Virus record (IMG/VR): IMGVR_UViG_2534681939_000020
Coordinates: 1-8,950 of that record
From: a virus
Lineage: Duplodnaviria > Heunggongvirae > Uroviricota > Caudoviricetes
Reading direction: 5' to 3' (one strand)
Length of the DNA stretch: 8,950 bases
Shown here piece by piece: positions 1 to 3,000 of this stretch; within the stretch, counting starts at the first letter, position 1, and each line of letters starts with the position of its first letter. Position numbers: made by a program.

Positions 1-3000
1 GTACGTGCGTTTTTCCGGGTCATAGTTTGACGGTACCTGAATGATGCGACCGCGGATATGGTAGTTCACCGTCATCTGCTGACCACCAAACTGCTCCGCA
101 TCCACCTGCAGCCCTACAATCGCCGTGTTCGGGTAGCACTGTTTCACATCGATGATTTCGGTGTATGACGACCACAGCGTCTTATTCTGCAGCTGGTCCG
201 TGGTGCTGTCCGCCGTCTCCCTGACCATCCGGATGTTAAAGGGGCGGGGAGGCAGATTATCCAGAATCACCGACGCCAGGTACTGCGAGGTGGTCTTGCC
301 GTTAATGGTGACATCATTTTCCGTCACCCAGTTACCGTTACGCTGCAACTGAATCAGCAGTCGGACAGAAGAGGGATTACGGTCGCCCTTTGAGGTGGTC
401 TCCAACAGTGACTGCACCCCGAAGGTGACCCGCAGGCGGTCAATGTTCGCGGATGTAATGGTGCGCGTCACCGGCTTTGCCTTCGTCACTTCCACGCCCA
501 GTGCGGTTTCAGCTCCGGAGGACTCAAAGCCTTCAGGTGGTGTCTGCTCCTGCTCCCCGGCGTGCCAGACCGCGGTCACACCATGTATCACAGGATTACC
601 GTCCGTGTCCGTCAGCGGGGTTTTGTTCACCAGGATACTCTGCAGCCCCTTCACCGGACCTTCAATCGGCCCTTCACCAATGGCGTCAATCACGCTCATC
701 ATCTGCGTGGACTTAAGATTGTCCTTTGCCTCTACCGGCGTGTGCGCCTTGCCGCCCCCTTTACCCACTCTGTCCCCCTCTCCTGTCTGATGTCTGAATC
801 TGTTTATGCCAGAAAACAACAGGCACCCCGGAGGGTGCCTGTGTCATGACGGAATAAGATTTCTGAAACTCTTCACATTTCCGGCAATTGCCTGTAGCCG
901 CAATAATGACGCTGCATTACTTTTTTGATGCCTGAAAAATAACTCCATAACGTTAATCTTCATCGTTCTCTCCCGCAGCTCCGCTAACTCTGCGGGATTT
1001 TTTTATTTTCATCCCCGCCCGATAACCACCACTTTCCCGTCTCCGCCCTCATCACGGGTGCTGATGTCCTGGGATATCCGTCGTGAACCAACCAGCATTT
1101 CACCGTAAGGCACCGGCATCGGGTTCCCCTGGGCAATCATGTTATCCAGCGAGGAAAAGTACGTGTTCTGTCTGCCGTTATCCGTTGCCCTGTATTCCGG
1201 TGTTTTTGCCTTCGGGGCAAGCATCTGAGCCACACCACCCAGTATCATGCTGGCACCCAGTGAAAACAGCATCGTGGTGGCAGAAAAACCGCCGGCACTC
1301 AGCGCTGCACCCCAGGCTGCCATCGATGCTCCGGCCGTGAAGAAAGAGCCCACGATGGCCGCCGCCCCCAGCACAATCTGCAGTCCACCCTTTCCGGCCC
1401 CGGCCAGTCGCGGCACAATGTGGATGACCGTTCCCTCACCCAGCTGTTCGTGAAGACGGGCGTACACCGCCTCCGGTGCCGTGTCATCACCGGCAATACG
1501 TATCTGGTACCAGCCTTCGTTCATCTGACGGCGGAATCCCGGCATCTGCATCGACAGGGCACGGATGGCTTCCGCTGCCGTGTTCACATACAGGCTGAGG
1601 CGGCGGCCAAATCGTTGTAAATCCCCGTGAAGGCAGATACGTGCCAGTGGCGGTGACGCCAGGCTGAATGCGTTCGTCGTTGCCATTTTTCGGAATACCT
1701 CTCCCGTTTACTCAGTTGTTCAGGCAGATGGTGAAGCAGTTCACCGTTGCCGCAGTAAATGGCGGCATGATTGGCCACCGATGCGCCAAAGCAGCACAGC
1801 AGGATATCGCCAGCCTGTGCAGAGGCAGGGAAACCCGGTAAAAGCCTGTGACCGCCATATTGTCCAGGTAAAGGTTCTGACCGTTGCGCCACCAGTCATC
1901 CTCACGCTCAAAATCCGGCATATCAATTCCCGCCAGATGGTAGGCATCCCGGAACAGCGTGTAACAGTCCGTCACCCCGTGCTCAAAGCGCCGTCCTGTC
2001 AGATGTGGCACACAGCGGAATTTATGAATTTCCCCCCGACAGACCAGCCACCAGGACAGTGCACTTTTTATCTGCAGCCGCCGGTCGGCCTCGCTCAGCC
2101 AGGGCAGACCACCGGGATGACTGTGGACCAGTGCCACAATCTCCCCCTGCATTTCTGCCCGCAGCCAGTCCTCCGGCGACATCCGGAAATAATCTTCCGG
2201 CTCACCGGAGATATTCACGCAGGGAAAATATCTTTCCCCTTCCGGCGTTCTCACCACGAAGCCGCACGACTCCGCTGGCGCACATCGCCGGGCGTGCGCC
2301 AATATATTGCTATAGAGCATGAGAACTCCTGATAAAAACCCAGCCGAAGCTGGGTCATTTCGTTGGCAATCTGTTAGTAGTGATGCGGTGAAGGAGGTAA
2401 TTCTTTATTCTTAAGTCTCATCCATGCGGAAAGATTCGTTGGTCCGTCTGGCTCATTGATATCAACATCTCGTGTGTGATTAATTAAAACGTCTCTCGCC
2501 ATTCCAATAACATACGAGAACTCATGACCGTAGTCGTAGCATCTGCCGGAATAGTTCGATTGAATTTGTTTTAGCGCCGGATACAGTTCGCGGAATAATG
2601 CCTGTGAGCGGTTGGCATAATCCCATAGCCATGCAAGGCTGTTTGCTTCTTTTGCGGAAAGCTCGTTGGTGCTCTTCTCTTGTTTGCCAATGAATTCACC
2701 TTCAAGCACTACCCTGTGGATGTACTCTACGGCAAGCGGGATTTGTTCAATTGAAAGCTCATCAATGCTGTCAATACCAGAACGCTGATGAACCATATTG
2801 TATGCATCGTCATTGCGAAGTCCTTTCTTTCCTACCAGCATGTTTACTGCATCGCGTAGCGGTGTTCTTTCCTCAACAATGGTTTTCTTTCCTTTTACAT
2901 ACTCGCCATGTTTGCGAATTGAAGGCAGAACTTCTGCTGTTACCCACTTGCGGAATTTGTGCGGGACTGAACCTTTATTGACTGCATCGCGGCAGCGCAG

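What the first reader, a model, noticed from the sequence alone, without database searches (positions are those of the whole stretch)
811..1008. Small terminator-flanked ORF in an unusually long I-J spacer
The gap between the I stop and the J start is ~240 nt, versus about 60 nt in lambda by my recollection. It holds a 39-codon ORF with a good ribosome-binding site, in AT-rich DNA, followed at once by a strong hairpin and T-tract. This has the look of a small moron, or a leader/attenuator element controlling J expression.
Basis: seen in the sequence. Interest (0 to 1): 0.45.

Follow-up and report, generated by a model that had tools for sequence, protein, structure and literature searches.

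The report
Known prophage small RNA, not ORF

Summary
The I-J gap is 240 nt (769-1008), against 60 nt in lambda. It contains a 39-codon ORF (963..844, minus strand). A strong hairpin with a T-tract follows at once (842..819, then 818..809).

The extra DNA is moron-like, but its payload is a small RNA gene on the plus strand, antisense to the tail genes. It runs from about 914/929 to 1004 and ends in a Rho-independent terminator (972-996 plus U7). It is homologous to PasB of EPEC E2348/69, an 83-nt Hfq-dependent RNA at the same site in prophage PP6.

The window spacer differs from the Sakai Sp11/Sp14/Sp15 spacers at one base. After correcting a +140 nt coordinate shift, the Hfq-CRAC peaks EcOnc22/23/24 (about 85 nt on Northern, destabilised in delta-hfq) map there.

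The ORF's "RBS" and ATG are the complement of the sRNA's terminator arm and conserved seed. The ATG is absent in 52 of 76 related loci, and only 6 keep a full-length frame.

The hairpin before J is an older feature. Lambda-type spacers (80 of 80) have an analogous hairpin and no sRNA cassette.

Verdict: already known, low interest.

The parts
914..1004 (+). PasB / EcOnc22-type Hfq-dependent small RNA gene, antisense to the tail operon. The 3' end is firm. The 5' end is uncertain: 914 from promoter geometry, or 929 by homology to the reported EPEC 5' end.
   Evidence: - EPEC PasB coordinates and Northern probe.
- Position of PasB in the EPEC I-J spacer.
- Alignment to the window.
- The EcOnc22 CRAC peak maps to about 932-992 after the coordinate calibration.
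- The window is identical to the Sakai copies over this stretch.
972..1004 (+). Rho-independent terminator of the sRNA. Stem CCCGCAG 972-978 / CTGCGGG 990-996, an 11-nt loop, and U7 at 998-1004. It ends 4 nt before the gpI stop codon, which is on the other strand.
   Evidence: Terminator scan, fold, and stem and T-run invariant in 15 of 16 aligned variants. Coordinates.
953..964 (+). Conserved single-stranded block TTAATCTTCATC (core AATCTTCAT 955-963). This is the putative seed of the sRNA. Its complement supplies the ORF's ATG-AAG-AT.
   Evidence: ATCTT is invariant in alignment A2. The block is unpaired in the centroid structure only in part. Zhu et al. 2026 place the PasB seed just upstream of the terminator.
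902..907 (+). Candidate -10 box of the sRNA promoter. It reads AATAAT here and TATAAT in most variants. An invariant G at 914 lies 7 nt downstream. The -35 is poor in this variant.
   Evidence: Alignment A2 and coordinates. The consensus promoter scan found no site in this variant, so this part is inferred.
844..963 (-). It is judged non-coding, a by-product of the sRNA gene and its promoter region on the other strand.
   Evidence: ORF list. Not conserved across 76 loci. Not beyond chance. No family match.
809..842 (-). Terminator-like hairpin on the tail-gene strand. The stem is 842..819 (10 bp, 4-nt loop), followed by TTGTTTTCTGG at 818..809, about 40 nt upstream of the J start.
   Evidence: Scan and fold z-score of -5.9. 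The stem is kept in all ~240-nt spacers, with one C-G to U-A compensatory pair. An analogous hairpin is present in 80 of 80 lambda-type spacers.
845..901 (.). Conserved A+T-rich block between the hairpin and the sRNA -10 box (GAAATGTGAAGAGTTTCAGAAATCTTATTCCGTCATGA on the minus strand). It probably holds upstream promoter or regulatory DNA of the sRNA cassette.
   Evidence: Conserved across the ~240-nt and ~345-nt spacer classes. The function is inferred only.
766..783 (-). gpJ ribosome-binding site (GGAGAGGGGG, 783..774) and GTG start (768..766).
   Evidence: Sequence, translation matching lambda J's N-terminus, and Sakai annotation.
1009..1686 (-). gpI tail assembly protein gene (context).
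   Evidence: ORF list and annotations of VT1-Sakai and Sakai.

Best explanation
The long I-J spacer of this EHEC-type lambdoid prophage consists of a lambda-like core plus an inserted cassette.

- The core is a terminator-like hairpin followed by the J ribosome-binding site.
- The cassette is about 165 nt and sits between the I stop codon and that hairpin.
- The cassette is a small RNA gene of the PasB / EcOnc22-24 family, read from the plus strand, convergent with gene I.

How it most likely works:
- The RNA starts at its own sigma-70-type promoter (-10 at 902-907).
- It ends at a Rho-independent terminator (972-996 plus U7) 4 nt short of the I stop codon.
- In lysogens it is made independently of the silent late operon as an RNA of about 85 nt.
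- Hfq binds and stabilises it. This is shown in the literature for an identical sequence.
- It then most likely acts in trans, pairing its conserved single-stranded AAUCUUCAU block with mRNAs of the host and of virulence islands. This last step is inferred from RIL-seq partners in EPEC.

The 39-codon ORF on the tail-gene strand is not a gene. Its Shine-Dalgarno-like GGGAG is the complement of the terminator's 5' arm, and its ATG-AAG-AT is the complement of the seed.

The hairpin at 842..819 is an older feature of I-J junctions. It probably stops transcription that is not Q-antiterminated before it reaches J, or stabilises the upstream mRNA. This is inferred and untested.
For: 1. Homology and position. 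EPEC PasB is at NC_011601.1 minus strand 1466343->1466261 and is 83 nt. gpI ends at 1466255 and gpJ starts at 1466496, both on the plus strand. The RNA is therefore antisense and begins its 3' end 6 nt from the I stop. The Northern probe AATCCCGCAGTGATCGCGGAGCT matches the window's minus strand except in the loop. The window aligns to PasB along its whole length.

2. Direct experimental evidence on the same sequence.
- The window spacer differs from the Sakai Sp11/Sp14/Sp15 spacers at one base, 858, which lies outside the RNA.
- Tree et al. 2014 Table S2 lists Hfq-CRAC peaks EcOnc22/23/24 on the plus strand in these three prophages. The Northern band is about 85 nt and is destabilised in delta-hfq.
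- Their coordinates are offset from NC_002695.2 by about +140 nt. AsxR gives 136-141, AgvB1 gives 139-146, and EcOnc42 gives 119-218.
- With that shift the peak falls at window 932-992.

3. Independent expression. In EPEC RNA-seq, pasB has a baseMean of 482-1082, against 4.8 for gpI and 15 for gpJ. It also shows a strongly negative log2 fold change (-6.8) in one comparison. PasB has 37 RIL-seq interactions and a U-tract of 7.

4. Conservation pattern. The terminator stem, U-tract, ATCTT core and a G 7 nt after the -10 are invariant across 16 diverse variants. The ORF's ATG is not.

5. ORF decay. 52 of 76 loci lack the ATG and only 6 of 76 keep a 39-41 aa frame.

6. Cassette boundaries. All 80 of 80 lambda-type gpI loci have 59-60 nt spacers with only a hairpin. 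All 76 of 76 window-type gpI loci carry the PasB-like body.
Against: - The window variant's promoter is weak on paper (AATAAT, poor -35). The consensus scan found no promoter.
- The exact 5' end is not known. It is 914 by promoter geometry and 929 by homology to the EPEC 5' end.
- Identity to EPEC PasB is only moderate, with two indels.
- Rfam 15 has no model that matches, so family membership rests on alignment and synteny.
- The EcOnc22 mapping depends on a coordinate shift that I calibrated indirectly.
- No target or phenotype is established for this RNA.
- The ORF could still be translated from the late transcript in the minority of phages that keep it.
Confidence: 0.88

Rival explanations
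1. The 39-codon ORF is a real small protein gene: a sense-strand moron translated from the late transcript or from its own promoter, and ended by the hairpin at 842..819.
For: - There is a good Shine-Dalgarno-like GGGAGAG 6 nt before the ATG, and a terminator-like hairpin right after the stop.
- Six of 76 related loci keep a 39-41 aa frame with similar ends (MKI......IPS).
- Annotators of two phages called small ORFs in this spacer.
Against: - The start codon is ACG or ACA in 52 of 76 loci.
- Most of the loci that keep an ATG are 16-31 aa with unrelated C-termini caused by frameshifts.
- No Pfam or PHROG family matches.
- An ORF this long arises in 31% of shuffles.
- Its coordinates are not in the supplementary files of the Sakai RIBOseq small-gene study. 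This is a weak negative, because the region is repeated in the genome.
- No promoter was found on that strand.
- The residue conservation is explained by the sRNA on the other strand.
Confidence: 0.04
2. The ORF and hairpin form a leader-peptide attenuator for J. A ribosome finishing the ORF 1 nt from the stem would melt the terminator and let transcription enter J.
For: - The stop codon (846..844) abuts the stem (842), a geometry that could couple translation to read-through.
- The hairpin is conserved, with one compensatory pair.
- An analogous hairpin precedes J in lambda.
Against: - The ORF is absent or in another frame in most relatives that keep the same hairpin.
- Lambda-type spacers have the hairpin with no room for a leader ORF.
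- Late transcription in lambdoid phages is Q-antiterminated, by established knowledge, so a terminator here should be ignored during lytic growth.
- I did not look for an alternative antiterminator structure.
Confidence: 0.04
3. The locus is a type I toxin-antitoxin pair. The small ORF is the toxin, and the antisense sRNA overlapping its RBS and first 14 or so codons is the antitoxin.
For: The arrangement, a small ORF whose 5' end is covered by a convergent antisense sRNA, resembles hok/sok-like and zor/orz-like loci by my own knowledge. The overlap itself is shown.
Against: - The peptide has no hydrophobic transmembrane stretch (sequence).
- The ORF is lost in most relatives while the sRNA is kept.
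- The ORF has no promoter of its own.
- PasB has many trans partners in RIL-seq.
Confidence: 0.02

Closest known systems
PasB (pathogenicity-associated sRNA B) of EPEC O127:H6 E2348/69, prophage PP6 (Pearl Mizrahi et al. 2021, PMC8550237; Zhu, Shabalina & Storz 2026 preprint)
   Same: - Same site: the I-J spacer, antisense to the tail genes, with the 3' end a few nt from the I stop.
- Same terminator stem and U7.
- Same conserved AAUCUUCAU block.
- Same overall length class.
- Hfq dependence.
   Different: - The window variant has an 8-nt deletion in the 5' half, a different terminator loop, AATAAT instead of TATAAT, and a degraded -35.
- It would not be found by the 28-mer BLAST used for bacterial genomes in the 2026 survey.
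EcOnc22 / EcOnc23 / EcOnc24 of E. coli O157:H7 Sakai prophages Sp15, Sp14 and Sp11 (Tree et al. 2014, PMC4104026)
   Same: The sequence is identical over the RNA, with one difference in the whole spacer, at 858. It has an Hfq-CRAC peak on the same strand, an approximately 85-nt Northern band, and is destabilised without Hfq.
   Different: - Nothing differs in sequence.
- The published coordinates refer to an older genome version and needed a shift of about +140 nt.
- The function is listed as unknown.
- The papers I read do not link EcOnc22 to PasB.
AgvB / AsxR anti-sRNAs of EHEC prophages
   Same: They are prophage-encoded, short, Hfq-bound RNAs with Rho-independent terminators, expressed in lysogens.
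   Different: They have a different sequence and a different site, the moron site downstream of PR' rather than the tail operon. There is no Rfam AgvB or AsxR match here.
Lambda I-J intergenic hairpin
   Same: It is a G+C-rich stem plus T-tract on the tail-gene strand shortly before the J RBS. The stem is conserved and the loop varies.
   Different: The stem sequence is different. Lambda has nothing else in its 60-nt spacer. I found no stated function for it in the papers searched.

Membership tests
PasB / EcOnc22 sRNA family | Located in the gpI-gpJ spacer of a lambdoid prophage, on the strand opposite the tail genes, with the 3' end next to the I stop codon | tested here: met
   EPEC PasB lies at 1466343->1466261 (minus strand), between gpI (ends 1466255) and gpJ (starts 1466496). 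The window homologue ends at 1004, and the I stop is at 1009-1011.
PasB / EcOnc22 sRNA family | Sequence homology to the reference RNA over its whole length | tested here: met
   Pairwise and multiple alignments. The Northern probe region matches except in the loop. The window is identical to the Sakai EcOnc22-24 loci over the RNA.
PasB / EcOnc22 sRNA family | Rho-independent terminator with a long U-tract (Hfq proximal-face module) | tested here: met
   A 7-8 bp stem plus U7, invariant in the relatives.
PasB / EcOnc22 sRNA family | Conserved block just upstream of the terminator (proposed seed) | tested here: met
   The ATCTT core is invariant, within TTAATCTTCAT at 953-963. The proposal itself is in Zhu et al. 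2026.
PasB / EcOnc22 sRNA family | Own promoter, independent of the late operon | tested here: inconclusive
   TATAAT sits at the right distance in most variants, but this one has AATAAT and a poor -35. The consensus scan found none. EPEC expression is about 100 times that of the flanking tail genes, which supports independence.
PasB / EcOnc22 sRNA family | Accumulates as an RNA of about 83-85 nt that depends on Hfq | not testable with these tools
   This is shown in the literature for EPEC PasB. It is also shown for the Sakai copies identical to the window (mapped here). It has not been measured in the source strain.
Protein-coding moron (small protein) | Reading frame and start codon kept among relatives | tested here: not met
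   The ATG is absent in 52 of 76 loci, and a full-length frame survives in 6 of 76.
Protein-coding moron (small protein) | Membership of a known protein family | tested here: not met
   There are no Pfam or PHROGs matches at E<=1.
Leader-peptide transcription attenuator | Conserved leader ORF coupled to a terminator | tested here: not met
   The terminator-like hairpin is conserved, but the ORF is not. Lambda-type spacers have the hairpin without any ORF.
Type I toxin-antitoxin | Small hydrophobic membrane toxin | tested here: not met
   The peptide MKINVMELFFRHQKSNAASLLRLQAIAGNVKSFRNLIPS has no long hydrophobic stretch. The ORF is lost in most relatives.
Intrinsic (Rho-independent) terminator, for the hairpin at 842..819 | G+C-rich stem-loop followed by a T-tract on the transcribed strand | tested here: met
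   A 10-bp stem with 7 G-C pairs, then TTGTTTTCTGG. The free energy is -27 kcal/mol and the z-score is -5.9.
Intrinsic (Rho-independent) terminator, for the hairpin at 842..819 | Transcripts actually end there | not testable with these tools
   This needs 3'-end mapping. No sense-strand I-J RNA appears in the held RIL-seq tables.
Rfam families (any) | Covariance-model match at or near the gathering score | tested here: not met
   The best hits in 500-1400 have E>1 and are far below gathering. PasB appears not to be in Rfam 15.

The most novel reading that the evidence does not exclude
Because the sRNA is perfectly complementary to the I-J junction of the late tail transcript, it may also act in cis during prophage induction. 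It could pair with the late mRNA and trigger cleavage or altered translation between I and J. Together with the conserved terminator-like hairpin, it would then set how much of the host-range protein J is made. The sRNA would be both a trans regulator of the host and a brake or tuner of its own phage's tail assembly. A related possibility is that the cassette arose as the 3' end of an antisense sodC moron, since 20 of 76 loci have sodC upstream of a PasB-like body that lacks the -10 box.
Probability: 0.12. Interest if true: 0.5.

Novelty: already known. Interest (0 to 1): 0.2.

Why it matters
Practically, it warns annotators that the small ORF in the I-J spacer of EHEC/EPEC lambdoid prophages should not be called a gene. 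The real feature is an Hfq-dependent sRNA, present in about 800 of 5426 complete E. coli genomes and typically in several copies.

A modest by-product is that EcOnc22/23/24 of O157 Sakai and PasB of EPEC turn out to be one family at one conserved site. This merges two separate literatures. It also extends the PasB family to variants missed by the stringent BLAST survey.

The function of the RNA and of the hairpin before J remains open.

Tried and rejected
- Rfam search of the spacer at a permissive E-value gave only chance-level hits.
- I first suspected the AgvB/AsxR anti-sRNA family. I rejected it because those genes lie at the PR' moron site and have an unrelated sequence.
- Taking the published EcOnc22 coordinates at face value put the peak over the J-proximal hairpin on the plus strand. 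I rejected this after calibrating a shift of about +140 nt between genome versions.
- The consensus promoter scan found nothing on either strand.
- A search of the supplementary files of the Sakai RIBOseq small-gene paper for the ORF coordinates gave no hits. This is a weak negative.
- A pattern scan of one genome per species for the seed-terminator motif returned mostly chance terminators in unrelated bacteria. The only credible hits were in Escherichia albertii.
- A literature search for a terminator or 3' ends inside the lambda late operon was unproductive.
- The covariation test on the hairpin gave only one compensatory pair, with 44 of 500 shuffles as good, so the support is weak.
- I did not run the large protein-homology searches on the 39-aa peptide. 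The comparative DNA evidence already answered the question.
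Full report
**What is in the sequence.**

The window is the tail region of an EHEC-type lambdoid prophage, with all tail genes on the minus strand.
- gpI is 1686..1009 and gpJ starts with GTG at 768..766 and runs off the window.
- The I-J gap is therefore 769-1008, or 240 nt.
- The 39-codon ORF is real (963..844, minus strand), with GGGAGAG about 6 nt before the ATG.
- Its stop codon is 1 nt from a 10-bp G+C-rich stem (842..819), followed by TTGTTTTCTGG. The stem folds at -27 kcal/mol with a z-score of -5.9.
- The spacer is 45% G+C against 54% for the window.

- An ORF of at least 40 codons turns up in 31% of dinucleotide shuffles of the spacer.
- The second hairpin, next to gene I (972-996), carries its T-run on the plus strand. 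It is a terminator facing the other way.

**Where the sequence comes from.**

The spacer is 99.6% identical to that of VT1-Sakai (Sp15) and several Stx phages. It occurs in 802 of 5426 complete E. coli genomes, with a median of three copies. It differs from the Sp11, Sp14 and Sp15 spacers of O157:H7 Sakai at a single base, 858. The flanking J and I coding sequences differ from Sp15 by several percent.

**What the plus-strand terminator belongs to.**

Pearl Mizrahi et al. 2021 described PasB in EPEC E2348/69.
- It is an 83-nt Hfq-dependent sRNA at NC_011601.1 1466343->1466261 (minus strand), with Northern probe AATCCCGCAGTGATCGCGGAGCT.
- In that genome gpI ends at 1466255 and gpJ starts at 1466496, both on the plus strand.
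- PasB therefore sits in the I-J spacer, antisense to the tail genes, with its 3' end 6 nt from the I stop.

The window aligns with that spacer along its whole length. The probe sequence matches the window's minus strand except in the loop. The window homologue is thus on the plus strand and ends at the terminator 972-996 plus U7 (998-1004).

In EPEC RNA-seq, pasB has a baseMean of 482-1082, against 4.8 and 15 for gpI and gpJ. It is made independently of the silent late operon. It has 37 RIL-seq interactions.

**Evidence on the identical sequence.**

Tree et al. 2014 list Hfq-CRAC peaks EcOnc22 (Sp15), EcOnc23 (Sp14) and EcOnc24 (Sp11), all on the plus strand. The Northern band is about 85 nt and is destabilised in delta-hfq.

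Taken at face value on NC_002695.2, these peaks lie 22-84 nt from the J start, over the other hairpin. However, the paper used an older genome version. I calibrated the shift with RNAs of known sequence.
- AsxR gives +136 to +141.
- AgvB1 gives +139 to +146.
- EcOnc42, which lies beyond this locus, gives +119 to +218 and excludes zero.

With +140, EcOnc22 maps to window 932-992, inside the PasB homologue. A review lists EcOnc22 with its target unknown. Neither PasB paper mentions EcOnc22. The 2026 survey used a 28-mer BLAST for bacterial genomes, which this variant would escape.

**Anatomy of the RNA gene.**

I aligned sixteen diverse variants. The invariant features are:
- the terminator stem and U-tract;
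- an ATCTT core within TTAATCTTCAT (953-963), which is where Zhu et al. place the seed;
- a GTTA...TTT block;
- a G that lies 7 nt after a -10 box.

The -10 box is TATAAT in most variants and AATAAT here (902-907). That puts the likely start at 914. The position homologous to the reported EPEC 5' end is 929. The -35 is poor in this variant and the consensus scan found no promoter, so the promoter is inferred. Rfam has no matching model.

**The ORF.**

Its Shine-Dalgarno-like GGGAG is the complement of the terminator's 5' arm (CUCCC). Its ATG-AAG-AT is the complement of the seed.

I examined 76 IMG/VR loci whose gpI is at least 96% identical to the window's.
- The codon at the ATG position is ACG or ACA in 52 loci.
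- Of the 24 with ATG, most give peptides of 16-31 aa with unrelated C-termini because of indels that are not multiples of three.
- Only 6 keep a 39-41 aa frame.

Pfam and PHROGs give nothing for the peptide. The coordinates are absent from the held supplements of the Sakai RIBOseq small-gene study.

**The hairpin before J.**

All spacers of the ~240-nt class keep the stem. One pair changes C-G to U-A with a U-G intermediate, and 98.8% of cells are paired. The shuffle control is only 44 of 500, so the support is modest.

Lambda has an analogous hairpin, AAACCGCC-TGCG-GGCGGTTTTGTC, 20 nt before its J RBS. All 80 IMG/VR loci with lambda-type gpI have a 59-60 nt spacer with that stem, a variable loop, and no sRNA cassette.

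The hairpin is therefore an older feature of I-J junctions, and the sRNA cassette of about 165 nt lies between it and the I stop. By established knowledge, Q-modified polymerase ignores such terminators in lytic growth. A likely role is to stop other transcription from entering J, or to stabilise the upstream mRNA. One possible source of such transcription is the ant promoter that this window carries upstream. This role is untested.

**The site is a hot spot.**

The 76 window-type loci fall into three spacer classes.
- About 240 nt (31 loci).
- About 345 nt (25 loci). These have a different, two-way-looking hairpin in place of the one here.
- About 854 nt (20 loci). These carry what I read from its translation as a Cu,Zn superoxide dismutase (sodC-like) gene on the antisense strand. 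It lies upstream of a PasB-like body that has lost the -10 box.

A species-wide pattern scan found credible copies only in Escherichia albertii besides E. coli. This agrees with the published Escherichia/Shigella restriction.

**Verdict.**

The feature is real, but the explanation is ordinary and already published. It is a prophage sRNA gene (PasB / EcOnc22-24) on the opposite strand, plus an ancestral hairpin before J. The ORF is a mirror-image by-product.

The remaining unknowns are the RNA's targets and the function of the hairpin. It is also unknown whether the RNA acts in cis on the late tail transcript. I give that reading about 12% and moderate interest.

Noticed in passing
window 3254-3320 (+) and 2374-3252 (-): There is a gathering-level Rfam match to sar RNA (RF00262, 66.7 bits). 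It lies immediately upstream of, and antisense to, a 292-aa antirepressor (Ant/BRO-like) ORF inserted among the tail genes. This is a P22-type ant-sar moron inside the tail operon. Sakai Sp15 lacks it at this position.
   Followed up: partly
L014, L016, L023, L034 and 16 other IMG/VR loci, I-J spacer (about 854 nt): In 20 of 76 related loci the I-J spacer carries a gene on the antisense strand that I read from its translation as a Cu,Zn superoxide dismutase (sodC-like). It has its own weak terminator and is followed by a PasB-like body that has lost the TATAAT box. The sRNA there may be made from the sodC 3' end, or may be silent.
   Followed up: partly
L019, L027, L033, L061 and others, I-J spacer (about 345 nt): In 25 of 76 loci the J-proximal hairpin is replaced by different DNA. 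That DNA has a hairpin AAACCCCGGTATC-TGCT-GATACCGGGGTTT with T/A runs on both sides, so it looks like a two-way terminator. The PasB body and promoter are kept.
   Followed up: no
L092 / L112 (lambda NC_001416 15445-15504) and L113-L192: Lambda's 60-nt I-J spacer has a conserved G+C-rich hairpin with a T-tract just before the J RBS. The stem is kept and the loop varies (TGCG, TCCG or TCAG) in 80 of 80 lambda-type loci. I found no stated function for it.
   Followed up: partly
Sakai chromosome coordinates in Tree et al. 2014 Table S2, compared with NC_002695.2: The published sRNA coordinates are about 140 nt lower than in the current RefSeq version, from at least 1.27 Mb to 2.92 Mb. In the text copy of the table, the 'Rho Term' marks appear inverted or lost, because AgvB and AsxR are unmarked.
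   Followed up: yes
window 1-1700 compared with L111 (Sakai Sp15): The spacer differs from Sp15 at 1 of 240 bases. The adjoining J segment has 39 differences in 768 bases, and I is similarly diverged. This points either to a recombination patch or to stronger constraint on the spacer.
   Followed up: no
L015, the J-proximal end of its 262-nt spacer. The window counterpart is 783-800 (minus strand).: The heptamer TCAGACA just upstream of the J RBS is present twice in the window and four times in L015. This is a small tandem expansion.
   Followed up: no
window 806-928 (+): There is a second ORF of 40 codons on the plus strand of the spacer. It has no family match and is of the length expected by chance.
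   Followed up: yes
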